Positions 1 through 25,806 of a stretch of DNA of 27,865 nt are shown in pieces. Positions within the stretch are counted from its first letter, which is position 1; every line of letters begins with the position of its first letter. Position numbers and translations under genes: made by a program. The notes under the pieces were generated by a model. That model ran no database searches, was not told the origin of the DNA, and saw nothing but the letters and a program-made list of their open reading frames with translations. This DNA comes from a virus: positions 1-27,865 of the IMG/VR virus record IMGVR_UViG_3300045988_046995. The stretch is one strand, 5' to 3'.

Positions 1-1
1 A

Positions 2-1406: not shown

Positions 1407-1428
1407 TACTGTTATAGTTATATATACT

Positions 1429-7301: not shown

Positions 7302-7303
7302 TT

Positions 7304-7783: not shown

Positions 7784-10700
7784 AAATATTAAATTATTTA
7801 TTGCAGGAAAAGAAGTACATTGTTCTGAAGGCATATCATTACCAATGACTTATACTGTAGAAGATTTTCAGAATCCAACAATAGTAAAAAATTCATTCAG
7901 TAAGACTATAAGCATTCCAGGAGACAAAAATAATAATAAGATTTTTGGAGAGATTTATAAGTTAGATAGATTTCTCCATATAAAAGAAGGTAATTTCTCT
8001 GGAGTATATTTTGATCCTTCAAAACGAGTTGATTTTGGAATTTATAATAATGGCTATTTAGTTGAATCTGGATATATGCAATTAAATAGCATATCTATAA
8101 AACAAGCTGTCATTACTTATAATATTACTTTATATGGAGGATTAGGAGATTTCTTCTATGGACTTAAATATAAAGAAGATGGTACTATTAGGACTCTTGC
8201 TGATTTACAATACTTTGTAACTGATGAAGATGGAAATACACTTCCTGCTGATACTGAACTTAATTTTTATATTAACAAAGATTTTGTAAATACTTGTTTT
8301 GACTGAAGTAAAACGAATGAAGGAAGTCAAATATATGATTATTTGACATTTATTCCAGCATATAATGGTTTATATGAAGATTTTGATAATGAAAGTTGTT
8401 TAATAAATACTAATGAAAATAGTATATTTCCTACTAGTAAGACAGATTCAGGAGTTACATATACACCTTATAATGGATATGGATTAGCTAAATTAAATAG
8501 AGCATATACAGAATGGGAGATGAGAGATCTTAGAAGTTATATGCAGAGGCCAGCTTTAAAATTGAGTAAGTTAATTGAAACTATCTGTAGAAAAGAGAAT
8601 TCTGGATATGATGTAGTATTTGATCCTTCATTTTTTAATTGAAATAATCCGTATTGAAGTAAATCCTTTGTAGCTTTACCTTTATTATCTAATCTAGTAA
8701 GTGACGAAGAAGATGTAACAGAATCTGGCTTTTTAGTAGAAGATAGTAAATATAATTATCAGGTAGGTATAAATAAAGGAGAATCTACATCAAGTCCTTT
8801 AAAATTATCCATTGCATCACCTGATATTGTTTACGATTCTGGAATAATTGATTTAAGTGAGGCTGGATTTAGAAAAAGCCTTTCTACAACTTTTTATTTT
8901 AAGTTAAAGTTTAATCGAACTGCAGGAAATGTTGGGGATAGATATTTTTTTGGATTTAGAAGGTATTTTAGCTCCTCTGCTCCTCCTTTTTATTCAGCAT
9001 ATAGAGGATACGCTGATGTTTGGCTAACAATTACTAATGAAGTAGATGATACTATTTATACTTCTGAAATACATAGATTTACAAATTCAGGAACCTACTC
9101 ACATCCTATAGCTAATGGGGTTAATCATTTTGGGTATTTTCAAAATAATGTATTTTATGATACTTCTTCATTAACTAATGATTTTGTTATTAATATTACA
9201 AATTTTAAAATTCCAATTAATAAAATTAAAATTAAACTTAATGTTGTATGATCTACTGGAAATAGTGTTAGCCCTACTGGATTATTAAGTGAAGTAATAG
9301 AAAGAGGAGAGGATTACCAAGCTATTCCAAAAGGAGATCTTATAGTAGATCTTACTTCTCCCATTGAAATTACTACTTCTACAGAGGTACTTCAAAGTAA
9401 TGCATTATTAACTAAAAAATTATTATTAAAAACAGAACAATCTCCTGCTGATTACTTATTGAGTTATGCAAAACTATTTGGGTTATATTTTACAAAAGAT
9501 ATTGATAGTAAAACAATTAGAATATATACTAGAAATAATTTCTTTAAGAATATAATCTCTGATTGGAGTAAGAGAATAGATTATTCTAAAGATTTCAATG
9601 TAAATCCAATATTATTTGATAAGAAGTGATATAGAATGAGTTCTGAAGGTCCAGAAACTTATTTTTATAAAAAATACAATAAGGAATATTCTATATTATA
9701 TGGTCAACAAAGATTAAATACTGGTTATAATTTTAATTCTGAAACAACTGAACTGTATAGTGATAATATATATGAAAATATAGTTTCTGCAAGATGGAGA
9801 AATAAATATTTTAGAAATTTTTACAATTCTTCTTCCCTTGTAGTTCCTGCATTTATGAATGATAATATTACCTATACATTATTTAATAATAGCACTACTG
9901 AACTTAAGACTATAGATCAAGAGTTATACGGAGCTAATTTTATAGATCCCTCTAAAACCACAGAATGATATAAAATCGCAGGTAATGATATATTTGCCAA
10001 AAATGTATTTTTCTCAATTGATGGTAATGAGGAATCTTTAGAGGATATCTCTCAATCCCTAGTATTCTTTAACGGTAATGTTCCTTTAACTGATGTAAAA
10101 GGAAATGAAGTAACATATTGAATTACAGATGATCTTACAGAAATGAACATATTAAATGATCAGGAAATGTGTTATATATCTACTAAAAGTGAGAAAGATA
10201 TTAGTGGGAATAAAATTGCTATAAAGAGAACTGTATTACCTCAATTTACAAGGTATACCGTTTCGTCCTCTAATGTTACTGCTTCTTGAGATTTTGGATT
10301 ACCACAAGAGATTTATATTGATGATATAACTTATAATATCGGAAGTACTATTTATAGTAGATTCTGGAGTGAATTTTATAATGATCAATTTGATGTAAAT
10401 ACTAAAAAAGTTACCTGCTTTGTAAGATTGGATAATTTAGATGTTAAATATGATTTACTTAGACAGTTCTATTATTTTGAAGATTCTTACTGGGTACTTA
10501 ATAAGATTGATGCTTATGATATTAATTCAGATTCTACAGTTAGATGTGAATTTATTAAAGTTCAAGATATTAATAGTTATTTAGCTGGAGTTCAAAATCT
10601 AGATGAATATATATCATTTGATGATTCAGATCCAGTTGTAGATTATAAAGCTGGGACTAAAAAGATTACAGTTACTTCTAATATTCCTTGAGAATTAGGA

Positions 10701-11132
10701 TGATATAGTCCAAATGAAATTGTAAGCATTACACCTGAATCTGGGCAACCTGGAGAAACAGAATTAACAGTTACTTATAATGAGAATACTAAATATGACC
10801 AAAGAAGTTTCTACTTTAGTCTTTATAAACAAGGAAGTATAAATGGCCCTCAATGTATGTTTACTCAAACTCCAGACCCAAATAAAGCTATTCTTATTAC
10901 AGGAAAGCTTCAAACTTCTACTGGAGGTATTCCTTCTGGCGTTAATCAGATTCTAACTGAAAATGATAATTTCTTAAATGTCACTTATATGAGAGATGAT
11001 GGAAGTTATAGAATATATGCTCAAAATGGAGTTCAATTTTTATTTAGAGTATCTGACGGACCAACAGGAACAATTAAATATACAGAGAATTTAACACTAA
11101 CAGAAGATACTGTTAAAAATATTACAATCTAA
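7776..11132 (+). CDS. 1118-aa tail/baseplate protein (Tal-like or tail-associated; function uncertain)
   Basis: Track ORFs 7737, 8343, 9636, 10428 and 10857 share one frame. I translated 8643-9635 and 9969-10427 by hand and both are open apart from TGAs. The C-terminus has a BACON-like segment (ITPESGQPGETELTVTYNENTKYDQRSFYF). Stop TAA overlaps the next ATG (TAATG). Confidence 0.7.
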
Positions 11133-13900
11133 TGGCACAAACAGAAATTAAAAAAGTAATTAGTATTGATACTAAGTCAAGTAATAAGTCAATAAACTCT
11201 TTAAAGAAAGATATTGACGCATTATCTAGTTCTCTGAATGATTTAGAGATTGGTACTAAGGAATATAATGAAACTCTTGCATTACTAGGTAAAAGACAAT
11301 CAGAGTTCAATAAAATTAATGAGCAGATAGCAAGATCTTCGAGAACTACTGCTCAAAGATTTGAAAGTGTAGCTAAAATATCCACTGGCTTAGCTAGTGG
11401 ATATGGTGCTGCAACTGCTGCTATTACTTTATTTGGGAAAGAATCAGAAGATTTAAATAAAGTAATGGTTAAGTTACAATCTACTATTGCTTTAGTTCAA
11501 GGTGTGGGAGGTATAAAAGATTTATTAGAAGAATTACCCACTTTAGGTAATTGGTTTAAGAAATTAACTGATTTTATTTCCCCATTTAATACAGGATTGA
11601 ATAATGCTGCCAAAAACCTTAATCAGATTGATACATCTAAGCTTAATGGCATTGGCACATCTGTTGGTAATGTTGGAACTGAATTAGGTAATATCTCTAA
11701 AGTAGTCAAGGATTTAGAAGGCACCAATATTAATCTCAGAGGTGGAATGGTTCAGGGTATGCTTGGAACTCCTGCTGAAATATCTGCTTCTAATAAGAGT
11801 GTATCTAATACGATTCCAATTATAGGTAAATTAGGAGAAACTGCAAAAAAGTCTTTTAAAGAAGTAAAACCTACATTTACTACAGTTGCTGAATTTTTAA
11901 AGGAAGCAGCAAAAGAGACTGGAACTCCAGCAGAGAGAATGCAGAAAGCTGCTAAACGTTTAGGTGTAGATCTTGCTGAATTAAAGGAAAATGTAGAAAA
12001 AGGCATTCCAACTTTGCGAAAAGGAGCAGAGGCTCAGAAAGCAATGGCTGAAGCTTCAGAACAAGCTGCTTCTGGAGTAGGTAAAGTTAAAACTGCACTT
12101 AAAACTATTGGTAATGTAACTGTATGAATTGCATTAGCTACAGCTATTGGAGTAGCTATTAATAAGATAATAGAGTATATATCCTCAATAAAATCAGCTG
12201 AAAAGGAGGCTGCTGAATTTAGAAAGTCTATTACAGATACTACTAATCAGATTGCTTCTAAATCTATAGCTATCTTTAGAGAGCTCCAAATAGCTTACGA
12301 AAGGGTTGGAGATTCTGCAGATGCTAAGCGTAAGTTTATAGAGCAATATTCAGATAAGATTAAAGAGACTGGTTTAAATATCACTGATGTAAAGACTGCA
12401 GAAGATGCGTTTGTAAATAATACTGGTAATTATGTAGAAGCATTAACTGCAAGAGCAAAAGCTCAGGCTATTGAACAGGCTGCAATTAAGCTTTATGAGG
12501 AGTATTTAAACAAACGTACTGAACTGGAGAATCAAATTTCTGATACAAGTTTTGGAGAGGTATCTGCTTGGCAGGCTTTTAAAGCTACAGCAATGTTCTG
12601 AAAAGATTATTCAAATACAATTTATGAGTATACAAAGCAAAATAAAGAGAATACTTATAAACAGTTGGATGATTTAAATAAAGACATTGAGAAAAGGCTT
12701 AAAAAGCTATTTGAGGATGTAGCAGATACTAATAAAAAGTATGGTGGGTTCTTTAATATTCCAACTATTACAAAGAACACTACTGAAGCTAAGAAGGTAA
12801 TAAATGAATTTGATGAATGGCTTCAAAAGAGATTAGAGGATAAAGACCCAGTAGATGAACTTGAAGATGAATATATTAGACTATTAGCATTAGCTATTAA
12901 GTATAATAGGGGAATTGAAGAGGTAGAAGCTTGGCATCAGGAAGAACTTAAAAAGATTAGAGATAAAGCTAGAGCTGATGAAGAAGCTAAGCGTAAAGCA
13001 GATGCAGATAAAGCTTGGAATGATCTACAGTCTGAATTAAAAAGGATTAGAGATTTATCTTCTACAAGTAATTTGAGAGAGCCAAGAGAGCAGACCTTTC
13101 AGACTACTTATACTCAAGGTATATCGAAAGCATTTGGATTGGCTGGAGATTATGAAGGGACTGGTTATAAATTTACATATCAGAGTAGAGAGGACTTAGA
13201 GAATCAATACAATGCTCAAATTGAATACAATAACAACTTACTCTCATTAACTCAAGGTAGAATAGAGCAAGAGAATGCCTTATTAAATCAGCAATTAATG
13301 AATGAACAATTAACTGCTGAACAAAAAGAGGAAATTCAAAGAACTCTTACTGAGAATAATATGGCCTTATCAGATGCTCAATTAGCTAATGAACAGGCAA
13401 ATACTCAGGCTTATCAAAATCTTCAAAAAGCAAGACAGCAAGCTTTACAGGGAACTTTATCTGTAGCTTCAAGCATTGCAGGAAGTATGGCAAGTATTTG
13501 GGGAGAAGAGAGTAAAGTTGGAAAAGGATTTGCTACTGCACAAGCTTTAATTGACACTTATTCAGCAGCAAATAGCGCATACTCTGCTATGGCAGGAATT
13601 CCTATTGTAGGTCCTGCTTTAGGTATTGCTGCAGCTGCAGCCGCAGTAGTTGCAGGTATTGCAAATGTTAAAAAGATTTGAGAAGTAGATGAATCAGGTG
13701 CAAGTGGAGTGAGTGGAGCATCTGCAGCAGTGGCAGCACCAGCTGCTTTAAATACAGCTCCTGTTGAATATACTCGAAACTTACTTGGAGATAAAGAAAC
13801 TGACCTTTTAAATGAACCTGTTAAGTGTTATGTTGTTGAATCTGACATTACTTCAGCTCAAACTAAGGTAGCAGTTACTGAATCTAATGCTTCATTCTAA
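11132..13900 (+). CDS. Tape measure protein (922 aa)
   Basis: Coiled-coil rich, with Gly/Ala hydrophobic segments (GLASGYGAATAAITLFG; GIPIVGPALGIAAAAAAVVAGIA). Track ORFs 11132, 12665 and 13709 are in the same frame. The gaps, translated by hand, are open, with TGAs at 12125, 12599 and 13679. Confidence 0.8.
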
Positions 13901-13910
13901 AAATATTTAG

Positions 13911-13960
13911 TGTAACTTTTTTATTCTTATTAACTACAAAATATGAGTAAAAAGGTTACA
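13911..13960. repeat. 50-nt imperfect palindrome, copy B
   Basis: tgtaacttttttattc / gagtaaaaaggttaca forms a 16-bp stem if two G-U pairs are allowed. It begins 10 nt after the tape-measure stop. Its first 13 nt are identical to copy A. Confidence 0.75.
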
Positions 13961-14012
13961 TTAGATATTCTAAAAATATTACAAATTTATAAAGTGCTAT
14001 ATATTAATAAAA

Positions 14013-14606
14013 ATGGAAATTACTTATAATGATCTTCCATTATTTCAGGCAGTGATTACTGATGATTGTGATGGAATAGAATATGTTGCTTTAACAAGTA
14101 AACCAGCTACACAAGTTAACTGGGTTGCTTTTAGTAATTCTCAGAAGTTCTCGATGGATGAAGATAAGCATTTAGTAACATCTTGCTTAATGTTAAGTGA
14201 TACTCCAATTTTCAGACGAGATGAGAAACTCGGAGAATACTACATACAGTATGATAAGGAAACTCTTCGTAAAATGGCAGAGAAGATGCTGTATGATAAG
14301 AGAACTACAGATGTAAATATTGAACATTTAGAAGATTCTGATTTAAATGGAATTACTCTACAAGAAATCTATGTAAAGGATATTAATAGAGGAATATCTC
14401 CAGTTGAATTCCAGGATGTTCCTGATGGTTCTTTATTTGTCACTTATAAAGTAGATAATCAAGTTATTTGAGATGCAATTAAAGCTGGTAAGTTTAAAGG
14501 GTTCTCAATTGAAGGTTTATTTACTTTAGAGAGAAAGTCTGATGAATATGACGAAATAAAAGAGATCCTTAATATGATTAAGAAGATAAAAAGAGTTAAA
14601 CATTAA
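14013..14606 (+). CDS. XkdF-like prohead serine protease (putative)
   Basis: DVNIEHLEDS...GSLFVTYKVDNQVI[W]DAIKAGKFKGFSIEGLF matches the XkdF-family C-terminal pattern (W..vk.G...GfSieG). The conserved Trp is the TGA at 14469-14471. It lies upstream of the scaffold and capsid genes. Confidence 0.7.
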
Positions 14607-14619
14607 AATTATTAATTAA

Positions 14620-15222
14620 ATGAGCAAATTCACAAGAATCAAGCTTGAATTGGCTAAAATGCTTGCAAAGTTCAGTGATATTAAAACTGATAAGGCAGTA
14701 CTTACTTGGGATTCAGATGAAGACTTACGCGCTGGTATGGATGTATATGTTCAGGATGAGAACGGAGAATACAAACCTGCTGAGGACGGTGAGTATGTAA
14801 CTGAGGATGGAAAGACGATTGTTGTTAAAGACGGTAAAGTAGAGTCTGTAACTGATCCTAAAGCTGAGGTTGATCCAGAAGAAGCAGCTAAAGCAGAAGT
14901 TGATGCTGCTTGTGGAAAACGCAAGGTAGAAACTGCTGAAGAGCCAGTTGATCCTGAAGTAGCTACTGATGGTGACAAAGAAACTGTAACTGATGCAATT
15001 GATGCAATTCATCGCGAAATTAATGAGCTTTATGACATTGTTGATAAGCTTGTTAAGAAAGTAGCTGAATTAGAGGGTAAATCTGAAGCTACAGAAAAGA
15101 CGGTTGAAAAGATGAGCAAAATGAGTGCTGCATTTTCAGCTGAGGAACAGATAGAAGGCAAAGCTTCAATAATGACTGGTAATCCTGTTATTGATAAAAA
15201 GCTTAAAAACTTTATTGGTTAA
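14620..15222 (+). CDS. Scaffolding protein (putative)
   Basis: Acidic, helical and low-complexity (AEVDPEEAAKAEVD..., INELYDIVDKLVKKVAELEGK). It sits between the protease and the capsid gene. No TGA. Confidence 0.6.
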   Translation: MSKFTRIKLELAKMLAKFSDIKTDKAVLTWDSDEDLRAGMDVYVQDENGEYKPAEDGEYVTEDGKTIVVKDGKVESVTDPKAEVDPEEAAKAEVDAACGKRKVETAEEPVDPEVATDGDKETVTDAIDAIHREINELYDIVDKLVKKVAELEGKSEATEKTVEKMSKMSAAFSAEEQIEGKASIMTGNPVIDKKLKNFIG

Positions 15223-15244
15223 TTATTAAATTATTTATAAAATT

Positions 15245-16150
15245 ATGGCAAATAGTCCTGTAATGACTAGTCTTACTGCTTATGTAGAGCAGAGACGTCT
15301 TCCTCTTATTAAAGAGGCTGTATTAAAGGCTAAGAGTGCTTCGTTGTTCAATCTTCAAACTGACATCAAAACTAGTGCTGCTCTTAACCTGTTATCAACT
15401 GCTATTCAGTTTGGCGATGGCCTAGCTTGTGGTTGGGATGAAGCTGGAACTCAGACTCTTTCTCAGAGAATTCTAGCTACTGGTAATATTAAGATCAATA
15501 TGGCATATTGTGATAAAGAGATGCTTAAATACTGGACTCAGTATCAAGTACGAGTAGCTGCTGGTCAGAAGACGCTTCCTTTTGAAGAGGATTTCGTAAA
15601 TGCAGTAGTTGAGAACGTTAAGGCTGCTATCGAGACTGCTATTTGGCAGGGTGATACTGCTTCTGAAACAAATAACCTGAAGTATTTTGATGGTCTGTTA
15701 AAGATCTTAAAAGATGCTGCTGGTACTGTTGATGTAACGATTACTGGTACTTCTGCTTACGATGACATTATGGCTGTTTATAACGCTATTCCTGAGAAAG
15801 TACTTGATGGTGCTTCTATCTTAGTAGGCGCTGATACCTTCCGTAAATTTATCCAGGAGTTAGTTGCTAAGAACTACTACCACTATAGTGGTGAGAATCT
15901 TAACGGTGAGATTATGCTTCCTGGTTCACAGGTTAAGGTTATTGCTGTTAATGGTCTTAATGGAACTGATAAGATTGTTGCTGGTCAGTTAGATAAGAAC
16001 TTCTTCTATGGTTGCGATATGATGAACGATGAAGAGAAGTTTGAATTGTGGTATTCACAAGATTTCCGCGAATTTAGATTAGCTATTGAATTTAACGCTG
16101 GCGTACAGGTTGCATTCCCTGATGAGGTAGTTCTTGGTGCCAAAGCCTAA
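15245..16150 (+). CDS. Major capsid protein (HK97-fold type, about 301 aa)
   Basis: Position after the protease and scaffold, size, and composition all fit. Codon usage is visibly biased and less AT-rich. The 4 Trp codons are all TGG and there is no TGA. Confidence 0.75.
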   Translation: MANSPVMTSLTAYVEQRRLPLIKEAVLKAKSASLFNLQTDIKTSAALNLLSTAIQFGDGLACGWDEAGTQTLSQRILATGNIKINMAYCDKEMLKYWTQYQVRVAAGQKTLPFEEDFVNAVVENVKAAIETAIWQGDTASETNNLKYFDGLLKILKDAAGTVDVTITGTSAYDDIMAVYNAIPEKVLDGASILVGADTFRKFIQELVAKNYYHYSGENLNGEIMLPGSQVKVIAVNGLNGTDKIVAGQLDKNFFYGCDMMNDEEKFELWYSQDFREFRLAIEFNAGVQVAFPDEVVLGAKA

Positions 16151-16188
16151 TTTCAATAGAGTTTAACTTTAAATAAGATTGAAATTAT

Positions 16189-16713
16189 ATGGCTTGTTTA
16201 ATAACTATCGCTGGTATTACCCTGGATTGCGAATCTTCGCTTGGTGGTATCAAACAGGTATGGATTACTCAGTACGATAATGTTAAGAGTGTAGCTGTAG
16301 ATGATGAGACTAATCAAATCTCAGCTATTACTCTTGAATCAGATGCTAAATGGTATAATTACCAATTCCGCAAAGGTACTGGTTCTCTAACCTCAACATT
16401 GAACGTTGACGAAACTGCAGGAACCAACTATGTAAGTAATGAGCTTGCTCTTGTATTTACAAAGATGGAGACTAAGAAAAGAATCGAGATTGCTGCTCTT
16501 TCTATTGGACAACTTGTAGTTGTTGTAGAAGATTCTAATGGCAAATACTGGTTCTTAGGAAAAGATGACTATGTAAGCGCTTCCGCTGGTACGGGTGTTA
16601 CTGGTACTGCAAAAGGTGATCAGAACGCTTATACGCTGACTTTAGCTACTGACTCTGAATCATATCCTTATGAGTTGAGTGCTGAAGCTATTCAAAGTGT
16701 TGTAGGTGCTTAA
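16189..16713 (+). CDS. Major tail tube protein (putative; a head decoration protein is not excluded)
   Basis: 174 aa, with capsid-like codon bias and no TGA. Motifs include LGGIKQVWIT..., VVVVEDSNGKYWFLGKDDY and GDQNAYTLTLATDSE. A strong terminator follows directly. Confidence 0.45.
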   Translation: MACLITIAGITLDCESSLGGIKQVWITQYDNVKSVAVDDETNQISAITLESDAKWYNYQFRKGTGSLTSTLNVDETAGTNYVSNELALVFTKMETKKRIEIAALSIGQLVVVVEDSNGKYWFLGKDDYVSASAGTGVTGTAKGDQNAYTLTLATDSESYPYELSAEAIQSVVGA

Positions 16714-16722
16714 CAACAGAAG

Positions 16723-16760
16723 AGGGGCGAGTATTAATTTACTTGCCCCTTATTTTGTTT
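16723..16760 (+). terminator. Rho-independent terminator
   Basis: aggggcgagt / acttgcccct forms a GC-rich 10-bp stem (one G-U pair) followed by tattttgttt. It begins 9 nt after the stop at 16713. Confidence 0.8.
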
Positions 16761-16803
16761 ATATACCACATAATGAATAATTTATATTTTATAGAAAAAT
16801 AAT

Positions 16804-19236
16804 ATGGCAAACGAAACTGAAAAGACAATTCTTCCCTATCTTAATGTCCTTGAAGTCGAAACAATAGATAAGTCAAATGTGACTAAAGTTATTGTTATTG
16901 ACAAGGATGATGAAGTTAAGGTTATGGATGGTTCTCAGTTAGCTACTAATAGCTATTTTGATCTTCAGGATAAACCTGAGATCAATAGTATTGAGTTAAA
17001 TGGTAATATGACTTCGGAAGAGTTGGGATTAGCGTCATCTGAAGATATTGTTACTATTAATTCTGAGTTAGAGCAAATAAAGAGTACTATTCCAAGTGCT
17101 GAAAATATTGATAATCAGATAACTGAACGATTAGCTGATTATCCAACTAAAGAAGAGGTTACAACTGAAATTTTAGATGCAGTTGCCAATAAAGCCGATA
17201 AATCTGAGATACCAACAAAAACTTCACAATTAACTAATGATAGTGGGTTTATTAGTAGCTTAGATGGATATGCTACTGAAAAATGAGTTGAAGATAATTA
17301 TCTTACAAAAGAAGCTACTGAAAGTGCATTAAATTCTAAACAGAATAAATTAAACCAAGGTGATGGTATAGTAATTGAAGAGAATACTATTTCTGCAGAT
17401 TATAATACTATTCGTAACAAACCATCTTTAAATGGAACTGAATTATCTGGAGCAGCTTCAATCGTACCTGCCATTAATATTCAATCAGTCCCATCTAAAG
17501 TTACTTTAGCTCCTGTATTTGGTAATCAAACTGGAGAAGCAGTTGAACTTCCAATATATAATACAGAGACTAATCAAGCTGGTATTGTTAATGGTCCTCT
17601 ATATGCACAATTAGCAGATAAATATACCAAAGCTGAAATTGATGCTTTAAATACAGCTATTAATAAAGAGATAGCTTCAAAACAGGAAACGCTTACAGCA
17701 GGAAAGAATATATCTATTATAGATAATGTAATCTCTGCTTTTGAGAATCATTTCTTACTTAATTTAGATGAGAATGATCCTGTAAGACAGAAACATATCT
17801 ATGACTTTATTAGAACTAATCTGGACTTCTATTTATTCTGCCAGATTACATATAAAGGTGATATTATAGTTATTCCTGTTGCAACTATTGAACATCCCGA
17901 AACTATTGATTTATATGGCTATTATTTTCAAGATAATGGTGTATTAGTAGTTATTAATGCAATCTTAGTAAATAATGGTAATATGACTGTTAAAGTTACT
18001 GAGGTTGATCTTACTAATAAAGGTTATACTAAAGATGAAGTAGATGAGAAACTTGCAGCTAAGCAAGGTGTATTTACTCCTCAAGCTCCATTAGCTTTTA
18101 ATGAAGATAAATCCCAATTATCTGTAGATTTATCTGGATACCAACCAGTTGGTGATTATGCAACTAACGATTCAGTTAATGAGGAAATTGAGACTCTAAG
18201 ATCTTCTTTACAAAGTAAGATTGATGCAAAACAAGATAAAGGAGATTATGCTTTAAAGAGTGATATTCCAACTAAAGTTAGTGAGCTTACTAATGATTCT
18301 AACTTTGTAACTGAAGCAGAGGTTTCTGGAGATTTAGCAGGTAAAGCAGATAAGACTTATGTCGATGAGCAGCTTGCTACTAAACAGCCTGTAGGAGATT
18401 ATGCAACAAAAACAGAACTTGCAGGTAAAGCAGATTCTTCTGTAGTAGAATCTTTATCTACTCAAGTAGCAACTAATACTTCAGATATATCAATTATTAA
18501 AACAAAACAAGAAGAAGATGGAGATAAGATTGATTCTCTTGATAAAGAGATGGCTACTAAGCAAGATTTACTTGTAAGTGGAACTAATATCAAAACAATC
18601 AATAGTCAATCTTTACTTGGAGAAGGTAATATAGAAATTGAAAGTGGATCTGATATTCCATTTCTATTTATAAATTCCACTGCTCATCTTTCTGGAGATT
18701 TCGCTGCTGTTAAGAATGCTATAGCTAATAAAACACCATTTGAGATTTATTATGTAAATATTCTAGGTTATGGTGATATAGCAGCTCCAGAAGTATGTTT
18801 TGTTTCAGGAGAAAATATTCAAGCTACTTTCCATTTTGAAAGTACTACAGCTAATCATACTGTAGTTCAAACTACTATTACTCCAACTGGAGTATCAGCA
18901 GATACTAGTTATCATAGTTATCAGGAGCAATTAGTCTCTGGGACTAATATAAAGACTATTAATGGTGAAAGTATTTTAGGAGAAGGTAATCTTGAAATAT
19001 CTGGAGGTGGAGGGACTACTGATTATACTCAGTTAACAAATAAACCTCAGATTAATTCTGTTGAGTTATCTGGCAATAAGAGTTTATCAGATTTAGGTAT
19101 TCAGCCTGCTGGAAACTATATTGAAGCTGGAACTGGAACCCAACCTCAAATAAATACTATTACTGTTCTAACTCAATCAGAATATGATGGTTTATCAACT
19201 AAAGATCCTAATACACAATATTTAATTGTAGAATAA
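16804..19236 (+). CDS. Tail fibre protein (810 aa)
   Basis: Track ORFs 16804 and 17983 are in the same frame and are joined through TGA 17284-17286 (ATEK[W]VEDNY). I translated 17287-17982 by hand and it is open. Repeated fibre motifs include SQLTNDSGF / SELTNDSNF, DYATK..LAGKADK, and two copies of LVSGTNIKTIN..LGEGN.EI. Confidence 0.8.
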
Positions 19237-19237
19237 T

Positions 19238-20359
19238 ATGAATATTAGAGATGATTTAAAAACATTTTATGTAGGTGACAGACAAGGTACTGCTATTTAT
19301 GTTGGCAGTACCAAAGTCTGGCCTATCAATCCTTGTAATCCACAAATAGTTACAGTTGCTAATCCAGTTCCTCAAGGTACTACAATAGTTGATCCTTGTA
19401 GTTATGTATTTAGCAGTTATGATGGAACTATAAATGATATACAAAGGGATTGAATGGGTAGAGGATCTGGCCTTACTTCTACAGTAATTAGTTTTACTGC
19501 TGATTTAAGTGAATTAGCCCTTAATATAGATGGTGTACCTCTTTGTAGTATTATAGGTTCTGCTCAAACATATGCAGATGTAAAGTTAAATAGTGGAGAT
19601 TTAAGTAGAAAAGGAGGGTTTTTTAAAACATCTCATTTTGATCTAAATAACCAGGAGATTACTAATCTTAATGAAGCATATGGAAGATGGTCTAGTGAAT
19701 CTCAATTTTGGGGTCAAACAATACATAGTGCTACTTTATCTAATGTTAAAATACCTACAACTACTAAAGAAGTAAGTGCAAATTATTTATTTATTGGAGT
19801 AAAAATAGATAATAATGATTTCTCTGTAATGAATAATTTTCAAAATCTTGTATTAGTAGATCCAAAATGGGCATTTGCAGATACAGCTGATGGAGCTACT
19901 AATATAGATAATATAACGATTAATATTCCATTTAAAGGAGATTGTAATCATATGTTTCATAGAGCATTATATCTAACAACTATTCCAAGTAATTTTACCT
20001 TTACTGGAATTACAGATATAAGCTATATGTTTAGTACTTGTAGTAGATTAATAGCTTCACCAGAAATAGATTGTCATCTTGTTACAGATTGTACTAGTTT
20101 TGCGGCATCTTGTCCAGAATTAGTAACTGTAGGAGCCTTAAATGGATTGGGAGAGAGTTTAACTGAAGGTGGCCTGCTATACTTTGCACAATCTCCAAAT
20201 TTATCTGAAGATTCATTACAAACTATAGCAGAATCTATTGGCACAGCAGTAAGTTCTAATACAAGTATTTCATTAAAATCTACTGCATACGATAAATTAA
20301 CAGATGAACAAAAATCATTAATAGCTTCAAAGAATTGAAGTATAAATCGAGTTGCATAA
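19238..20359 (+). CDS. DUF285/BspA-like leucine-rich-repeat receptor-binding protein (putative), paralogue 1
   Basis: Track ORFs 19238 and 19454 are in the same frame, joined by TGA 19451-19453. Repeats are of the type CNHMFHRALYLTTIP / ISYMFSTCSRLIASP / CTSFAASCPELVTV. The C-terminus is LTDEQKSLIASKN[W]SINRVA*. Confidence 0.65.
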
Positions 20360-20361
20360 TT

Positions 20362-20598
20362 ATGAAAATTGAAATTAAAGAAAAATATAAAGTAGTTAGT
20401 CCAGAAGAAGGTTATATACTTACTAACTATAAAGAAGGAATGGATATTAAATTATACAGTTCATTTACTGAATGTATCTGTCCTTTAAGTTGCGATTTAG
20501 AGCATCTATCAGAAGTCTCTTTAGATAAGGATGCTGAATATAAAGAATTAGCTATTAAAGCTTCTAAAGAGTATGAGGAATCAATAAAAGTTAGATAA
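20362..20598 (+). CDS. Hypothetical protein (78 aa)
   Basis: Open frame from ATG 20362, tightly packed between neighbouring genes. No recognisable motif. Confidence 0.45.
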   Translation: MKIEIKEKYKVVSPEEGYILTNYKEGMDIKLYSSFTECICPLSCDLEHLSEVSLDKDAEYKELAIKASKEYEESIKVR

Positions 20599-20600
20599 TT

Positions 20601-21320
20601 ATGATTATACTTAAGAATACTAAAAATACACAAACTTTCTATGTTAGTAAGAAATGTGGTATTGAATCTGGACAACTTCCTGTTGGTTCTTATACTAAGA
20701 TTGAAGCAGATGAAAGATTCCAACCTAAAGGTAATTACATTTCTGAAGAGAAAGCAGAAGAGTTAATTAATACTAAAGTAACAGAAAGTATTGAAGATCA
20801 AGTTCCTCCTTTAGTAGATCAATCTATTGATGCTAAGCTTGTTCCAATTAATACTGAGATTACTAATCTTAAAGGGGAAGTTGAGGAGTTAGAAACTTCT
20901 AAGATGGAAGTATTCCAAGCTAATCAACCTCTATCTTTACATAGAAATGGAGAAGGTTTGCAACTATCTGTAGATTTAAGTAATTATGCAACTAAAGCAG
21001 AAATTCCTGATACTAGTGATTTTGCTACTAAAGAAGAGCTTACAGCTGTTGAAAGTGAAGTTGGAAATAATTCTTCTAAGATTACAGCTATTGAAAGCAA
21101 ACAAGAAGAGGATGGACTAAAGATTGATGCATTAGATAAGGAAGTTGGGACATTAGATGCAAATAAAGCAGACAAATCGGAACTATCTAATTATGTAACA
21201 TTAGAAGTATATAATGCTAAGGTTTCAGAATTAGAAGCTGCTATTCAAGCTTTACAGGCACAAATCGGAACTATCTCAACTACTCTTGATACAATTAATG
21301 GTGAAATTCCAAATGAATAG
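20601..21320 (+). CDS. Coiled-coil fibre-like protein (second fibre module)
   Basis: Shares motifs with the fibre at 16804-19236: [25 protein letters not shown] versus QAPLAFNEDKSQLSVDLSGY, and [17 protein letters not shown] versus KTKQEEDGDKIDSLDKE. No TGA. Confidence 0.65.
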
Positions 21321-21834
21321 AGTATTAACAAATTATCCTAACTATAGTGTATCTTCTACAGGAGATGTATATAGTAACCCATTGACTTTTAAAGATTCTA
21401 TTGGAAGAACCAGAAAACAAATACATAAAAAGCTAAAACAGCATATAGATAAATATGGCTATAATTATGTAATTCTAGTATCTGGCTTAGATAAACCTAA
21501 AGCTATTAAAGTTCACAGACTAGTAGCAGAAGCATTTATTCCAAATCCTGACAATCTACCATATGTTAACCATATAAATGAAAATAAGACAGATAATAGG
21601 GTAGAAAATTTAGAATGATGTGATACAAAGTATAATAATACATATGGAACTAGAATAAATAGATGTATTGATAAAATTAGTAAACCTGTAGGGCTATTTA
21701 TTAATGATTTACTAGTTAAAACATATAAAAATGCAATTGAAACATCAATAGATGGGTATACTCATAGTAGAGTTATAGATTGTCTTAAAGGAAGAACAGA
21801 CACTTATAAAGGGGTAAAATTTAAATATATCTAA
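21313..21834 (+). CDS. HNH/NUMOD4-type homing endonuclease
   Basis: Contains [14 protein letters not shown] and [34 protein letters not shown][W]C, with the TGA at 21616-21618, then continues to ...YKGVKFKYI*. It overlaps the stop of the upstream gene. Confidence 0.85.
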
Positions 21835-21835
21835 T

Positions 21836-22852
21836 ATGGCAAATACAATTTCTGATAAATTAACGTATCTTGAAGGTACTAAGAGTGCCATTAAAGATGC
21901 TATTGTAGCTAAAGGTGTTGCTGTATCAGATTCCGATACCTTTAGAAGCTATGCAGATAAGATAGGACAGATTTCTGGAGGTGGTGGAGGAAAGGTTAAT
22001 TTAAATGATTATGGATTAACATTTGCATATTCTAGTCCTACTGATAATCAAGTAAATCAGATTATCTTTGATTTACCTGATTTTACAAGTACGAGAAATT
22101 TTTTTTCGCATATGCAGTCTCCTAATGCATATATAAATCTGTTTTCTATGTGAAATACAGGTTTAAATTACGATTGTTCGGGTATGTTGAGTAATGCTAA
22201 AATAAATCAAATAGATTTCCCACAGGAAATTACTATACGCGATGGCAATAATATGTTTAGTAGTTTTAATGCTAATGCTTTAACATTAGATACAATTATA
22301 CTACAAACTAATACTGCTTGATATGATTTAAGTCAAATGTTTAATTCTTCTAATGTTGTATGCAATCATATAATTATTAGAGATGAAGAAAATGATACTC
22401 CGTATGTTGTGTTTAATGCCACTTTTGCCAATTTAACATCTACTATTACTACTCTCCCAGATATTAAGTTTGAATTAGTAGGATCATCTATTAATCTTGA
22501 ATGTGGAGGTACTTATAGTTATTTACCTGATACAATTACAACTTTGCCAGAATGAGATTTAACAGGTGTAAATGAAGGTCAGTCCTTTAATAATTGGCCT
22601 TTTTATAGTTGGGAATCTCCAAATACATCAATAACTGATATGGAAGGTATTATAAATTTAAGAGTGGAATTAAATTTATCTTTACTCCAGTCGTTAAATA
22701 GTGCAGCTATTGATAACATTTTAAATAAAGCTGCTGATTTAACTGGAGAAGTATCTCAAACTATTACATTTGCAGCAGATGTTTATAATGCACTTACTGA
22801 AGAACAGAAATCATTAGCTACATCTAAAAACTGAACTTTAGCATCAGCATAA
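21836..22852 (+). CDS. DUF285/BspA-like LRR receptor-binding protein (putative), paralogue 2
   Basis: Track ORFs 21836, 22337 and 22640 are in the same frame. In-frame TGAs lie at 22151, 22319, 22553 and 22832. The N-terminus is DKLTYLEGTKSAIKDAIVAKGV and the C-terminus is LTEEQKSLATSKN[W]TLASA*, parallel to the gene at 19238-20359. Confidence 0.65.
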
Positions 22853-22856
22853 ATTT

Positions 22857-23008: not shown

Positions 23009-23401
23009 ATGAATTATACTTTATTAATGCAAAATACAATTACTAAAGAAGTTTATGTATATAACTTAGAAAATCAGAATTATGCTGAAAATATCTACTA
23101 TAAGTTTGATATTACATTATCTGATGATATGCCTGATGGTGAATATCAGTATATTCTGTTTAGTAATCCAAATAAACTTGAAGTAATTGTAGATGTAAAT
23201 AATCCTATGCAGTCAGAGCTATATGGTAATCCAGTTATTCTGGTAACTTATGAAAATACTCTTACTACAGGAACACAGATATTAGTTGCTGGTAAACCTA
23301 TACCTGTATTGAGTTCAGGACTAATAAGAGTTGGAGATTATCAGAATAATAAATACCAATACGATAAACAAAACAAATATATGGCTTATGAGCGAAAATA
23401 A
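23009..23401 (+). CDS. Hypothetical protein (130 aa)
   Basis: Uninterrupted ORF and first gene after the spacer. No motif recognised. Confidence 0.5.
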   Translation: MNYTLLMQNTITKEVYVYNLENQNYAENIYYKFDITLSDDMPDGEYQYILFSNPNKLEVIVDVNNPMQSELYGNPVILVTYENTLTTGTQILVAGKPIPVLSSGLIRVGDYQNNKYQYDKQNKYMAYERK

Positions 23402-24479
23402 AACAAAAGTACAATTAAGTGCAATTGATCCTGTTGTAGTGTCAAATTTAGTACTTCCTGTAGAATCGAGAAAAAGGGGTTCTGATTGGATTTCTTGGGG
23501 TGAAGATAATCGCTATCCATTATATCTATGGGATTTATACTTAAATGTAGCTACTCTTCAATCTATCATTAATGGGACTGCTGACTTTATTGTTGGTAAT
23601 GATGTTATATGTAATGCACCAGGATTTGAAGTAACTGTAAATAAGAAAGGTGAAACTATTATGGATATTATGCGTAAAGTATCTAAAGATAAGATGATTT
23701 TTGGAGGATATGCTTTACAAATAATTAGAGATATGTTAGGTAGAGTTTCAGAGATCTATCATCTTGACTTTATGAAGATTCGTTCTGATGAAAAGAATGA
23801 AGTATTCTATTATGCCGATGATTGGTCTGCTTGGTCTATTAAAGCTATCAAATATCCAAAATTTAATTATTCAGATGATAATCCTACAAGTGTTGTTTAT
23901 AATAAGGGCTATATAACAAGAAAAGTATATCCAGTCCCTGTTTATGGTGCAGCTATCCTATCTTGCGAAACTGAGAAGAATATTAATGAGTTCCATCTAA
24001 ATTCTCTTCATAATGGATTTATGGGCAATCTTATCATTAACTTTAATAATGGACAGCCTACAGACGAAGTTAAAGAAGAGATTGAGATGAATATCAATGA
24101 GAAATTCTCAGGATTTCAAAATGCTGGTAGAGTTCTTATTTCATATAATGATGATGAAACAAATAAGACTACTATTGAGCGTTTAGACTCTGATGATTTT
24201 GATGAGAAATATAGTGCTTTATCTGATAGGACAAGAGAACAGATATTCTGCGCATTTAGAGCTAATAGTGTACTTTTTGGCCTTAACTACTCAAGTGGAT
24301 TCAACGAACAAGAATTTAATGAAGCTTTTAAACTTTATAATCGTACAGTAGTTAGACCAATTCAGGTCGAAATAGTAGATACATTTGATAAGATATTTGG
24401 AATGAAAGGTTCAATAACTATAACTCCTTTTAGCTTAACTCCAAATGGACAAGAAGATAGCAAACAAAATGTTGAATAG
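23388..24479 (+). CDS. Portal protein (putative, small PBSX/P2-size class)
   Basis: The N-terminal region GSDWISWGEDNRYPLYLWDLYLNVATLQSIINGTADFIVG resembles the portal pattern (W..fG.dN.yP..l..l...s..h..ii..k). Likely start is ATG 23388. The 5 Trp codons are all TGG and there is no TGA. Confidence 0.65.
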   Translation: MSENKTKVQLSAIDPVVVSNLVLPVESRKRGSDWISWGEDNRYPLYLWDLYLNVATLQSIINGTADFIVGNDVICNAPGFEVTVNKKGETIMDIMRKVSKDKMIFGGYALQIIRDMLGRVSEIYHLDFMKIRSDEKNEVFYYADDWSAWSIKAIKYPKFNYSDDNPTSVVYNKGYITRKVYPVPVYGAAILSCETEKNINEFHLNSLHNGFMGNLIINFNNGQPTDEVKEEIEMNINEKFSGFQNAGRVLISYNDDETNKTTIERLDSDDFDEKYSALSDRTREQIFCAFRANSVLFGLNYSSGFNEQEFNEAFKLYNRTVVRPIQVEIVDTFDKIFGMKGSITITPFSLTPNGQEDSKQNVE

Positions 24480-25804: not shown

Positions 25805-25806
25805 TT

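What the first reader, a model, noticed from the sequence alone, without database searches (positions are those of the whole stretch)
14620..16713. TGA use is strongly partitioned: absent from the most highly expressed virion genes, saturating in others
Scaffold (14620-15222), major capsid (15245-16150; 4 Trp, all TGG), tube (16189-16713; 3 TGG), portal (23388-24479; 5 TGG), 25118-25804, 25807-26232, TerS, the holin and the terminal HNH contain no TGA. In contrast the HNH at 7304-7783 encodes 5 of 5 Trp as TGA. The 92-codon ORF at 1429-1707 carries 4 TGAs, and the tail genes 5121-7301 and 7776-11132 carry many. The capsid-tube block is also visibly less AT-rich and uses different synonymous codons from its neighbours. 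This argues that TGA decoding is limiting or conditional in the producing cell, for example dependent on a phage suppressor tRNA. It argues against TGA being a free synonym, as it would be in a host with a native table-4 code.
Basis: seen in the sequence. Interest (0 to 1): 0.75.

Follow-up and report, generated by a model that had tools for sequence, protein, structure and literature searches.

The report
Costly TGA-Trp codons in recoded phage
This common gut phage reads the stop codon TGA as tryptophan but carries no tRNA to do so, and selection keeps TGA out of its capsid, holin and early genes, so reading TGA in the infected cell appears to carry a cost.

Summary
Inside the window alone the partition is only modestly significant (p about 0.02-0.04). 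About 90 related loci make it robust. In the recoded clade the counts (TGA/TGG) are capsid protein 0/186, scaffold 0/28, tube-like protein 1/98, holin 0/29 and early helicase-like protein 1/87. Tail, fibre and homing-endonuclease genes sit at 30-94% TGA. In the capsid gene 41 of 48 conserved Lys/Glu/Gln columns flip between A and G endings, yet none of its four Trp columns carries TGA within that clade. This is selection, not lag or base composition.

The window is 89% of a ~31.4 kb TGA=Trp phage. The complete genome has no tRNA, release factor or tRNA synthetase. Bacteroidota-type early promoters, near-absent Shine-Dalgarno sites and an M15 endolysin point to a walled, standard-code Bacteroidota host. 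Phages of native code-4 hosts use TGA freely, even in their head protein.

The suggested phage suppressor tRNA is not. How TGA is decoded remains unknown. I rate this a new variant of the known stop-codon-recoded gut phages, with interest about 0.6.

The parts
13912..13959 (.). 48-nt inverted-repeat element (GTAACTTTTTTA...AAAAAGGTTAC) at the start of the capsid operon. Other copies lie at 4511-4558 and 22858-22905.
   Evidence: In relatives it is found only at the starts of the g4630, g14013, g23009 and helicase operons.
14013..14606 (+). Prohead protease (S78-like). TGA-poor: 1 TGA/1 TGG in the window, 9/71 in the clade.
   Evidence: PHROG 24921, 15223 and 3017. Peptidase_S78_2, weak. Counts.
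14620..15222 (+). Scaffold protein (acidic, coiled coil). 0 TGA/1 TGG in the window, 0/28 in the clade.
   Evidence: It matches the C-terminal part of the protease-scaffold PHROG 24921. Counts.
15245..16150 (+). Probable major capsid protein. 0 TGA/4 TGG in the window, 0/186 in the clade. It has the strongest codon bias of any gene.
   Evidence: PHROG 11320 and 1623. Weak Pfam Phage_capsid match. Synteny after protease and scaffold. In 46 low-GC clade sequences all 4 Trp columns are fixed TGG, versus 41/48 Lys/Glu/Gln columns polymorphic. With relatives up to 35% GC added (50 sequences), parsimony gives 1 change (a TGA in L046) versus 9.7 expected, P=6.5e-4.
16189..16713 (+). Tail-tube-like protein. 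0 TGA/3 TGG in the window, 1/98 in the clade.
   Evidence: AlphaFold2 model with pLDDT 62. The best Foldseek hits are tail tube proteins of phages 7-7-1, SPP1, Milano and Mu, at E 7e-4 to 1e-2 with low TM-scores. Parsimony gives 1 change versus 5.3 expected, P=0.03.
16722..16751 (+). Strong intrinsic terminator that closes the capsid operon.
   Evidence: 12-bp stem with 6 GC pairs, followed by a T tract.
23388..24479 (+). Portal protein. 0 TGA/5 TGG in the window, 15/191 (7%) in the clade.
   Evidence: Pfam Phage_portal and PHROG 11226. TGA variants arise (8 changes versus 8.8 expected) but stay rare.
25118..26232 (+). Two head-completion-like genes (DUF6712 protein 25118-25804, and 25807-26232). 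TGA-free in the window, 18/122 and 3/32 in the clade.
26890..27048 (+). Two-TM holin of 52 aa. 0 TGA/2 TGG in the window, 0/29 in 15 diverged unique sequences.
27048..27500 (+). Endolysin (Peptidase_M15_3). 1 TGA/2 TGG in the window, 29/38 in the clade. It implies a host with peptidoglycan.
   Evidence: Pfam E=2.7e-14. PHROG 894.
7304..7783 (+). HNH homing endonuclease with 5 of 5 Trp encoded as TGA.
   Evidence: PHROG 59. TGA sits at the conserved W of NLEWC and IWKY. It is present or absent among near-identical relatives.
1375..1707 (+). Multi-TM small protein. 4 TGA/2 TGG in the window, 58/43 in the clade.
5121..13900 (+). Tail module: 726-aa and 1118-aa tail proteins and a 922-aa tape-measure-like protein, with 5/11, 10/6 and 3/6 TGA/TGG. 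Trp codons flip freely here.
   Evidence: Trp-column changes are 35, 31 and 20, against 16.8, 29.7 and 17.5 expected.
16804..22852 (+). Fibre module. 16804-19236 (Phage_tail_C) is 1/0. 19238-20359 is 2/4. HNH 21298-21834 is 1/0. 21836-22852 is 4/2, and 100/22 in the clade.
24445..25137 (+). GIY-YIG homing endonuclease. 3 TGA/1 TGG in the window, 84/30 in the clade.
2041..3724 (+). TerS-like gene (0/1 in the window, 6/18 in the clade) and TerL (1/2 in the window, 46/56 in the clade).
   Evidence: PHROG 2. Counts.

Best explanation
What it is. The window is about 89% of a ~31.4 kb tailed phage with a siphovirus-like gene set. It is very common in human gut metagenomes and reads TGA as tryptophan. 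It most likely infects a Bacteroidota host that uses the standard code.

What happens to TGA. TGA is decodable in the infected cell, with up to 10 in-frame TGAs in a single tail gene. But it behaves as a costly, non-optimal codon. Purifying selection removes it almost completely from the capsid operon (scaffold, capsid protein, tube-like protein), the holin and the early genes (helicase-like protein, e59, e79, m44). Selection holds it at about 7-13% in portal, protease and head-completion genes. In tail, fibre, packaging, endolysin and homing-endonuclease genes it drifts toward the A-ending mutational equilibrium of about 60-80%.

Most likely cause (inferred). UGA decoding in an otherwise standard-code cell is incomplete or slow because it competes with release factor 2. 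Each TGA then loses a few percent of product. That loss is tolerable for proteins needed in a few copies. It is expensive for the proteins made in the largest amounts, for a dose-critical holin, and for genes that must be translated before any suppression is established.

Shown versus inferred. Shown: the code, the counts, the selection, the absence of any phage tRNA, the host-type promoters and the capsid-block codon bias. Inferred: the standard-code host, expression levels, the RF2-competition cost and the source of the decoding activity.
For: Selection specific to TGA.
- In the capsid gene 4/4 conserved Trp columns are fixed TGG in 46 low-GC clade sequences, while 41/48 Lys/Glu/Gln columns are A/G polymorphic.
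- In the helicase-like gene 3/3 Trp columns are fixed TGG, although its Lys/Glu/Gln codons are 74% A-ending.
- Parsimony gives for the capsid gene 1 change versus 9.7 expected (P=6.5e-4), and for the tube-like gene 1 versus 5.3 (P=0.03). Tail genes match expectation.

Gradient with codon adaptation.
- Spearman rho is -0.42 (p=0.035) between a capsid-referenced adaptation index and TGA fraction, with the reference genes excluded.

Recurrence in independent lineages.
- TGA-recoded relatives L047 and L049 have capsid genes at 0/3 and 0/4.
- In the TAG-recoded relative L073, capsid, scaffold and tube hold 0 TAG among 21 Gln codons, against about 15% elsewhere.

No code-change machinery.
- No tRNA was found.
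- No release-factor or aaRS domain was found in the proteins scanned. The largest tail and fibre proteins were not scanned here.

Standard-code, walled Bacteroidota host.
- A tandem TTTG-N20-TAnnTTTG(T) promoter pair is the only exact match in the genome. It sits upstream of the TGA-free early operon and is conserved in 21/22 relatives. The consensus is from PMC12632263.
- Only 4/32 genes have an SD-like motif.
- The endolysin is an M15 peptidase.
- The relative L048 uses the standard code at 28% GC.

Contrast and precedents.
- Native code-4 phages use TGA in their head protein.
- In Agate phages a homing endonuclease, a tail protein and a TM protein are the TGA-preferring families, and only 35% of code-4 phages have a detectable suppressor.
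- In Blastocrithidia, reassigned codons are avoided in highly expressed genes.
Against: - No decoding agent was identified, so the claim that decoding is 'incomplete' is an inference.
- The base after TGA does not differ from the base after TGG (p=0.25), and the leaky UGA-C context is rare at 2/47. There is therefore no direct trace of RF2 competition.
- TGA occurs in genes that may be needed before late expression: sigma-like g309 and g601, and the nuclease-like early-region ORF at 33/26. A clean early/late switch does not fit.
- Portal and head-completion proteins are low-copy yet TGA-poor, so copy number alone does not order the genes.
- Expression levels were not measured.
- Capsid-protein identity rests on synteny and weak profile matches.
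- Close relatives are not independent. Tests that treat columns as exchangeable overstate significance somewhat.
Confidence: 0.55

Rival explanations
1. The host decodes TGA as Trp constitutively, either through a native code-4 or through a host-encoded opal-suppressor tRNA. The TGG preference in the capsid operon is then ordinary translational selection. TGG would be read by two tRNA species and TGA by one, with no competition from termination.
For: - The complete phage genome has no tRNA, release factor or aaRS.
- 18 of 32 window genes carry TGA, up to 10 per gene, which demands efficient decoding.
- TGA is never used as a stop: 27 TAA and 5 TAG.
- TGA also occurs in sigma-like and early-region genes.
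- The capsid block shows a general optimal-codon signature.
Against: - Bacteroidota-type early promoters and the lack of SD sites point to a phylum with no known code-4 members (the last point is from general knowledge).
- An M15 endolysin excludes wall-less Mollicutes.
- In native code-4 phages TGA dominates even in the head protein: 9/1 in SpV4 and 38/2 in P1.
- The helicase-like gene avoids TGA despite 74% A-ending Lys/Glu/Gln codons.
- The family has standard-code and TAG-recoded members.
Confidence: 0.2
2. The partition comes from positive, regulatory use of TGA, as in the model of Borges et al. TGA is selected into tail-fibre, homing-endonuclease and membrane-protein genes to delay or throttle them until the code switch. 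Other genes simply lack it.
For: - The TGA-rich classes here (HNH and GIY-YIG endonucleases, tail proteins, TM protein 1375-1707) are the same classes that prefer TGA in Agate phages.
- The early helicase-like operon is compatible with the standard code.
Against: - TGA fractions in the 'rich' genes (0.57-0.94) do not clearly exceed the A-ending fraction of Lys/Glu/Gln codons in the same genes (0.58-0.86). Drift suffices to explain them.
- The holin, which is the key lysis timer, is TGA-free in all 15 variants.
- There is no 5' positional bias: mean relative position is 0.53 for TGA and 0.45 for TGG.
- The strong statistical signal is depletion in the capsid gene, not enrichment elsewhere.
Confidence: 0.15
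3. There is no TGA-specific phenomenon. The pattern reflects chance with few Trp codons, a general G/C-ending bias of a GC-richer capsid module, evolutionary lag after a recent recoding, or recent import of the capsid module from a standard-code relative.
For: - In-window statistics are weak (p=0.02-0.04).
- The capsid gene has the highest G-ending fraction at two-fold purine codons, 0.56.
- The nearest standard-code relative has fewer Trp codons, all TGG. Conserved Trp codons therefore started as TGG.
Against: - Clade counts are 0/186, 0/28 and 1/98.
- A/G synonymous sites in the same capsid alignment are saturated, with 41/48 columns polymorphic and 114 inferred changes, whereas its four Trp columns show no TGA in the low-GC clade and only one change in the wider set.
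- TGA fraction correlates poorly with A-ending fraction across genes (rho=0.21, p=0.30).
- The TGA-free capsid gene is stable across lineages at 57-98% identity, and recurs in a TAG-recoded relative.
Confidence: 0.05

Closest known systems
Stop-codon-recoded (code 4 / code 15) gut phages of standard-code hosts (Ivanova 2014; Yutin 2021, PMC7886860; Borges et al. preprint 10.1101/2021.08.26.457843)
   Same: - Low-GC gut phage with TGA read as Trp and an uneven distribution of recoded stops.
- At least one early gene is kept in the standard code.
- Homing endonuclease, tail and TM proteins are TGA-rich.
- Standard-code, TGA-recoded and TAG-recoded relatives lie close together.
- A missing suppressor tRNA is common: only 35% or 15% of code-4 genomes have one.
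   Different: - The genome is complete, small (31 kb) and entirely tRNA-less, with no RF1 or TrpRS.
- The capsid operon and the holin are kept free of TGA. The published generalisation is enrichment in structural and lysis genes, and crAss-like capsid genes do carry recoded stops.
- Here the strongest signal is depletion by purifying selection, not enrichment.
Blastocrithidia nuclear code (UGA=Trp; PMC12153298)
   Same: - Reassigned stop codons are distributed non-randomly and avoided in highly expressed genes, which was interpreted as a translational burden.
- UGA is decoded there without a cognate UCA tRNA, by an altered tRNA-Trp(CCA) together with a release-factor change.
   Different: - It is a eukaryotic nuclear genome with its own fixed translation apparatus.
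- Here a virus uses a bacterial host's apparatus, and the decoding agent is unknown.
Phages of native code-4 Mollicutes (Spiroplasma phage 4, Mycoplasma phage P1)
   Same: TGA is read as Trp, the genomes have low GC and there is no phage suppressor tRNA.
   Different: - TGA is the dominant Trp codon there, including in the major head protein: 9/1 in SpV4 and 38/2 in P1.
- Here TGA is 39% overall and 0 in the capsid gene.
- This phage has a peptidoglycan endolysin and Bacteroidota-type promoters.
Translational selection on codon usage of highly expressed phage structural genes (established concept, cited from my own knowledge, e.g. Lucks et al. 2008)
   Same: - The capsid block shows a classic optimal-codon signature: GGT, GCT, CGY and NNC are up, and ATA, AGR, GGA and GCA are down.
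- TGA behaves like the most strongly disfavoured codon.
   Different: - The disfavoured codon is a host stop codon.
- Avoidance extends to genes without general codon bias (the helicase-like gene) and to the holin.
Multi-code block genomes detected by Mgcod (10.1101/2022.06.29.495998)
   Same: Stretches compatible with the standard code alternate with recoded stretches in one genome.
   Different: The standard-compatible blocks here include a late structural operon embedded between recoded tail modules, not only an early half of the genome. I did not run Mgcod.

Membership tests
Stop-codon-recoded phage (TGA->Trp) infecting a standard-code host | In-frame TGA in conserved genes, aligned with Trp in homologues | tested here: met
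   TGA sits at the NLEWC and IWKY Trp of HNH paralogues. TGA columns pair with W in 79 of 149 cases and with G in 2. TGA/TGG polymorphism occurs at the same columns.
Stop-codon-recoded phage (TGA->Trp) infecting a standard-code host | Coding density and gene length are restored under code 4, and TGA is not used as a stop | tested here: met
   Bases in ORFs of at least 100 aa total 24.6 kb under code 11 and 35.1 kb under code 4. A contiguous + strand gene set emerges. Stops are 27 TAA and 5 TAG, with no TGA.
Stop-codon-recoded phage (TGA->Trp) infecting a standard-code host | Code-change machinery: suppressor tRNA(UCA), sometimes RF1 or TrpRS | tested here: not met
   No tRNA in the window, in L066 (which covers the missing 3.6 kb) or in about 60 relatives' loci. 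A permissive Rfam scan found nothing and relaxed ARAGORN gave only noise. No RF or aaRS domains were found in the proteins scanned. The literature shows this feature is absent from most code-4 genomes, so it is frequent rather than strictly defining.
Stop-codon-recoded phage (TGA->Trp) infecting a standard-code host | The host uses the standard code | not testable with these tools
   Support is indirect only: Bacteroidota-type early promoters, 4/32 SD-like sites, an M15 endolysin and standard-code relatives. Distant relatives were binned with a Bacteroidaceae MAG and a CAG-239 MAG.
Stop-codon-recoded phage (TGA->Trp) infecting a standard-code host | Early genes are translatable in the standard code | tested here: met
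   Helicase-like protein 1/87, e59 0/3, e79 0/18, m44 1/14. Exceptions are m70, with an ambiguous TGA-ATG junction, and the nuclease-like ORF at 33/26.
Phage of a native code-4 host (Mollicutes-type) | TGA is the predominant Trp codon in all gene classes, including the major head protein | tested here: not met
   The window has 47 TGA/72 TGG and its capsid gene 0/4. The controls are SpV4 head protein 9/1 and phage P1 38/2.
Phage of a native code-4 host (Mollicutes-type) | Wall-less host, so no peptidoglycan endolysin is needed | tested here: not met
   A Peptidase_M15_3 endolysin with an adjacent holin is conserved across the clade.
HK97-type head module (protease - scaffold - major capsid protein) | Capsid protein with the HK97 fold | tested here: inconclusive
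   PHROG 1623 'virion structural protein' at 1e-6. Pfam Phage_capsid at E about 0.007, below the cutoff, in 3/13 family members. A PDB profile search found nothing. The single-sequence AF2 model was unusable, with pLDDT 37. Synteny supports the assignment.
Tail tube protein | Tail-tube fold | tested here: inconclusive
   The AF2 model has pLDDT 62. The top Foldseek PDB hits are nearly all tail tube proteins, but TM-scores are 0.3-0.48 and E-values 7e-4 to 1e-2.

The most novel reading that the evidence does not exclude
A complete, highly prevalent Bacteroidota phage switches the infected cell to TGA=Trp without any tRNA of its own. Instead it acts on host components. For example, a small TGA-free early protein could inactivate or sequester RF2, so that host tRNA-Trp(CCA) reads UGA slowly. 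Alternatively it could modify host tRNA-Trp. This would be analogous to the tRNA-Trp(CCA)/eRF1 solution in Blastocrithidia. TGA would then be an intrinsically slow 'throttle' codon. Its cost would be visible as the selection gradient found here, and host genes ending in TGA would be read through as a side effect, giving host shut-off.
Probability: 0.25. Interest if true: 0.85.

Novelty: new variant of a known kind. Interest (0 to 1): 0.6.

Why it matters
[quoted passage not shown] Converting TGA:TGG ratios into selection strengths (my own calculation from the counts) gives a gradient from about 1 in tail genes to more than 4.6 in the capsid gene.

The complete 31-kb genome has no tRNA and no recognisable code-change gene, and the phage is abundant in human gut data. 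It is therefore a compact, tractable case for the open question of how suppressor-less recoded phages get TGA decoded. In practice, per-gene TGA/TGG ratios could be used to rank expression or dosage sensitivity of genes in uncultured recoded phages. The standard-code-compatible genes also mark what the phage needs before, or independently of, suppression.

Tried and rejected
Searches that led nowhere:
- Megablast of 14000-24500 and tblastn of the capsid protein against 50,697 GenBank phages found no match. TerL reaches only 28% identity to Thermus and Halorubrum phages, so there is no cultured relative or host.
- The genome-contig scan with the capsid protein found only two distant relatives (48-50% identity), on short contigs binned with a CAG-239 MAG and a Bacteroidaceae MAG. 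This is weak host evidence.
- The 148-kb IMG/VR contig looked like a prophage but is a concatemer of diverged phage copies.
- The look-up of encoding contigs refuses proteins containing TGA. I used the TGA-free terminal HNH instead.
- Relaxed ARAGORN settings, intron mode and mitochondrial mode gave only hits inside coding regions, including one 'mtRNA-SeC(tca)' inside g26232. I judged these to be noise.
- The helicase-like 572-aa protein has no hit in Pfam, PHROGs, NCBIfam or PDB. 'Helicase-like' rests only on DEYH- and TAT-type motifs read by eye.

Tests with negative or unusable results:
- The base after TGA versus after TGG, as a trace of RF2 competition, shows no difference. Relative position within genes shows no bias.
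- The single-sequence AF2 model of the capsid protein was unusable, with pLDDT 37. A PDB profile search with 13 family members found nothing.

Explanations considered and rejected:
- A simple link between TGA share and general A3/G3 bias is weak (rho=0.21, p=0.30).
- TGA=Gly (code 25) is rejected.
- Evolutionary lag and capsid-module import are rejected.


Full report
**What the window is**

All long ORFs lie on the + strand. Reading TGA as sense raises the bases in ORFs of at least 100 aa from 24.6 to 35.1 kb and yields a contiguous set of 32 genes. These cover packaging (TerS-like, TerL), a tail module, a head module, a fibre module, portal and head-completion genes, a holin, an M15 endolysin and several homing endonucleases. 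The head module runs S78-like protease, scaffold, probable capsid protein and tube-like protein.

The window is 27,865 bp of a ~31.4 kb genome. The missing 3.6 kb is L066:10364-13948. It carries a divergent promoter region, a minus-strand operon with a 572-aa helicase-like protein, and a few small ORFs. Contigs of relatives cluster at 29-31.5 kb. A 148-kb contig is a concatemer of diverged copies, not a prophage. The phage is very common: single protein variants occur on 120-255 contigs, and nr labels them as human-metagenome 'Bacteriophage sp.'. It has no cultured relative.

**The code**

TGA sits at conserved Trp positions of three HNH paralogues. In 149 alignment columns containing TGA, the commonest other residue is W (79), then Y (22) and F (11), with G only 2. 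No window gene ends in TGA; stops are 27 TAA and 5 TAG. The code is TGA=Trp (code 4), not code 25.

**Checking the observation**

Every count in the finding is correct. The window holds 47 TGA and 72 TGG.

In the window alone the partition is modest:
- Heterogeneity by permutation gives p=0.017.
- Capsid block versus the rest gives Fisher p=0.021.
- Trp codons lying in TGA-free genes give permutation p=0.04.
- TGA is globally under-used, at 39% against 72% A-endings in the other purine-ending two-fold pairs (p=1e-13).

The capsid block is GC-richer and uses markedly different synonymous codons. It favours GGT, GCT, CGY, CTT, CAG and NNC, and avoids ATA, AGR, GGA, GCA, ACA and CCA. This is the usual signature of translational selection in the most heavily translated genes.

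**Relatives make the case**

I collected about 100 loci around the capsid and TerL genes and built orthologue sets under code 4. Among unique sequences of the low-GC recoded clade, the TGA/TGG counts are:

| Gene | TGA/TGG |
|---|---|
| Capsid protein | 0/186 |
| Scaffold | 0/28 |
| Tube-like protein | 1/98 |
| Helicase-like protein | 1/87 |
| Holin | 0/29 |
| Early e79 | 0/18 |
| Early m44 | 1/14 |
| Portal | 15/191 |
| Protease | 9/71 |
| Head-completion genes | 18/122 and 3/32 |
| Tail proteins | 226/492 and 318/412 |
| Tape-measure-like protein | 106/169 |
| TerL | 46/56 |
| Endolysin | 29/38 |
| TM protein g26232 | 95/96 |
| TM protein g1375 | 58/43 |
| HNH 7304 | 43/19 |
| GIY-YIG | 84/30 |
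| g21836 | 100/22 |

TerS (6/18) and the terminal HNH (5/3) are not consistently TGA-free.

**Is it selection?**

Within each gene I compared conserved Trp columns with conserved Lys/Glu/Gln columns. Both have the same kind of third-position A/G choice.
- In the capsid gene, across 46 low-GC clade sequences, 41 of 48 Lys/Glu/Gln columns carry both A and G and only 6 are fixed G. All 4 Trp columns are fixed TGG.
- In the helicase-like gene, 3 of 3 Trp columns are fixed TGG although its Lys/Glu/Gln codons are 74% A-ending.
- Parsimony on gene trees, with relatives up to 35% GC included, gives for the capsid gene 1 change (a TGA in L046) against 9.7 expected (P=6.5e-4). The tube-like gene gives 1 against 5.3 (P=0.03) and the helicase-like gene 0 against 2.6 (P=0.07).
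- In tail, packaging and endonuclease genes, Trp codons flip as often as expected.
- In the portal gene TGA variants arise at the expected rate but stay at 7%. That is the signature of weak purifying selection.

Lag after recoding, recent module import and a mere G-ending bias are therefore rejected. TGA share correlates poorly with A-ending share (rho=0.21, p=0.30). It correlates negatively with a capsid-referenced codon-adaptation index (rho=-0.42, p=0.035, reference genes excluded).

The pattern recurs in independent lineages of the family:
- TGA-recoded L047 has a capsid gene at 0/3 and L049 at 0/4. L046 has 1/3.
- In the TAG-recoded relative L073, capsid, scaffold and tube hold 0 TAG among 21 Gln codons, against about 15% elsewhere.
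- L048 is a standard-code relative with 28% GC and no in-frame TGA.

**Who decodes TGA?**

It is not a phage tRNA. ARAGORN finds none in the window, in L066 or in about 60 relatives' loci that jointly cover the whole circle. A permissive Rfam scan of the window and L066 finds no tRNA at E<=1. Relaxed ARAGORN modes give only noise inside genes. No release factor, aaRS or other translation-related domain was found in the proteins scanned.

**What is the host?**

- The only exact matches in the genome to the Bacteroidota primary-sigma promoter (TTTG-N19-21-TAnnTTTG) are a tandem pair in the divergent intergenic region. The -7 consensus TANNTTTGY is from PMC12632263.
- That pair points into the TGA-free helicase operon.
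- The pair is conserved in 21 of 22 relatives despite divergent spacers. It accounts for 41 of the 72 matches in 760 kb.
- Only 4 of 32 genes have any SD-like tetramer, and none of the capsid-block genes does.
- A conserved M15 endolysin and holin imply peptidoglycan.

From general knowledge, no gut Bacteroidota is known to read TGA as Trp.

As a control I checked phages of native code-4 hosts, which use TGA as the main Trp codon even in the head protein. SpV4 has 9/1. Mycoplasma phage P1 has 38/2 over eight genes.

A standard-code Bacteroidota host is the best inference, though it is unproven.

**How it most likely works**

Decoding must be fairly efficient, because a 1118-aa tail protein carries 10 TGAs. 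Suppose each TGA lost about 5-10% of chains. A 10-TGA tail protein needed in a few copies would still be made. Four TGAs in the capsid protein would waste a fifth to a third of the largest synthetic investment of the infection. That is enough to explain near-absolute purging. Converting TGA:TGG ratios against the A3 expectation gives selection strengths of about 1 for tail genes, about 3 for portal and more than 4.6 for the capsid gene (my arithmetic).

The holin is dose- and time-critical. The early operon is transcribed from host-type promoters and must be translated by the untouched host apparatus.

These mechanistic steps are inferences. I found no direct trace of RF2 competition: the base after TGA is like that after TGG, and UGA-C is rare. 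TGA also occurs in sigma-like g309 and g601 and in an early-region nuclease-like ORF. A clean early/late switch does not fit. The three late operons and the helicase operon all start with the same 48-nt inverted-repeat element. This argues against different promoter classes as the cause of the capsid/tail difference.

**Comparison with what is known**

Stop-codon-recoded gut phages are well described.
[quoted passage not shown] The same classes are TGA-rich here.
- Suppressor tRNAs are detected in only 35% or 15% of code-4 genomes.
- In crAss-like phages the capsid gene itself carries in-frame recoded stops.

I found no paper reporting depletion of the recoded stop from the capsid operon or holin of a phage. 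This is limited to the held library. The closest conceptual precedent is Blastocrithidia, where reassigned codons are avoided in highly expressed genes and UGA is read by an altered tRNA-Trp(CCA).

I therefore file this as a new variant of a known kind. It is a complete, tRNA-less, code-4 Bacteroidota phage in which the reassigned codon behaves as a strongly disfavoured codon. The capsid operon, holin and early genes are kept compatible with the standard code.

**Verdict**

- Confidence in the cost-of-decoding explanation is 0.55.
- Interest is 0.6.

Noticed in passing
window 4511-4558, 13912-13959, 22858-22905; L066 12546-12593: A conserved 48-nt inverted-repeat element has arms GTAACTTTTTTA / TAAAAAAGTTAC (variant GTCAGTTTTT / AAAAACTTGAC) and a conserved loop. 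It lies at the starts of the tail, capsid and portal operons and in the 5' leader of the helicase operon. In relatives a loose pattern finds it only at these four operon starts and at none of six internal genes. It is probably an operator, promoter or processing site. Two copies are followed by terminator hairpins (about 4569-4583 and 22906-22933).
   Followed up: partly
L066 12669-12700 and 12758-12789 (minus strand), outside the window, between window end and window start: A tandem pair of Bacteroidota-type promoters (TTTG-N20-TAnnTTTGT) drives the TGA-free helicase operon. It is conserved in 21/22 relatives with divergent spacers. A near-consensus copy (cAtcTTTG) faces the + strand genes.
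   Followed up: yes
window 309-617 and 601-858: g309 has weak similarity to ECF sigma-70 region 2 (TIGR02937, E=8e-4, below the cutoff). g601 has sigma region-4/HTH hits. The two ORFs overlap by 17 nt in different frames. They may form a split or frameshifted phage sigma factor for the late operons.
   Followed up: no
L066 10632-10844 (minus strand): In a small ORF downstream of the helicase-like gene, an in-frame TGA is directly followed by ATG (K-TGA-ATG). It is TGA in 15 unique sequences and TGG in 2. It could yield one 70-aa protein under code 4, or a 38-aa plus 31-aa pair under the standard code.
   Followed up: partly
window 1-316, 840-1406, 7304-7783, 21298-21834, 24445-25137, 27503-27841: Six homing-endonuclease genes (five HNH, one GIY-YIG) sit in a 31-kb genome. 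Their presence and insertion sites differ between relatives whose capsid protein is identical. For example, GIY-YIG lies before the portal gene, inside it, or next to the scaffold gene.
   Followed up: partly
L073 (Bacteroidaceae MAG bin), L048, L046/L107, L047, L049: One phage family contains standard-code members (L048 at 28% GC, and GC-rich ones), several TGA-recoded lineages and a TAG-recoded lineage (L073). Trp content is about twice as high in the recoded clade as in L048, for example 16 versus 3 Trp in the 726-aa tail protein. This suggests that new Trp codons arise as TGA.
   Followed up: partly
L027/L081 (IMGVR_UViG_3300045988_175865, 148,631 bp): This contig is a head-to-tail concatemer of diverged copies of the ~31-kb genome. 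It is probably an assembly artefact from co-occurring strains, not a prophage or a jumbo phage.
   Followed up: yes
window 4092-4508 versus 3724-4365: An ORF in another frame overlaps the 3' end of gene 3724-4365 and extends 140 nt beyond it. It may be a frameshift extension.
   Followed up: no
window 27824-27852: A bidirectional terminator hairpin lies between the convergent + strand late genes and the minus-strand early operon.
   Followed up: no
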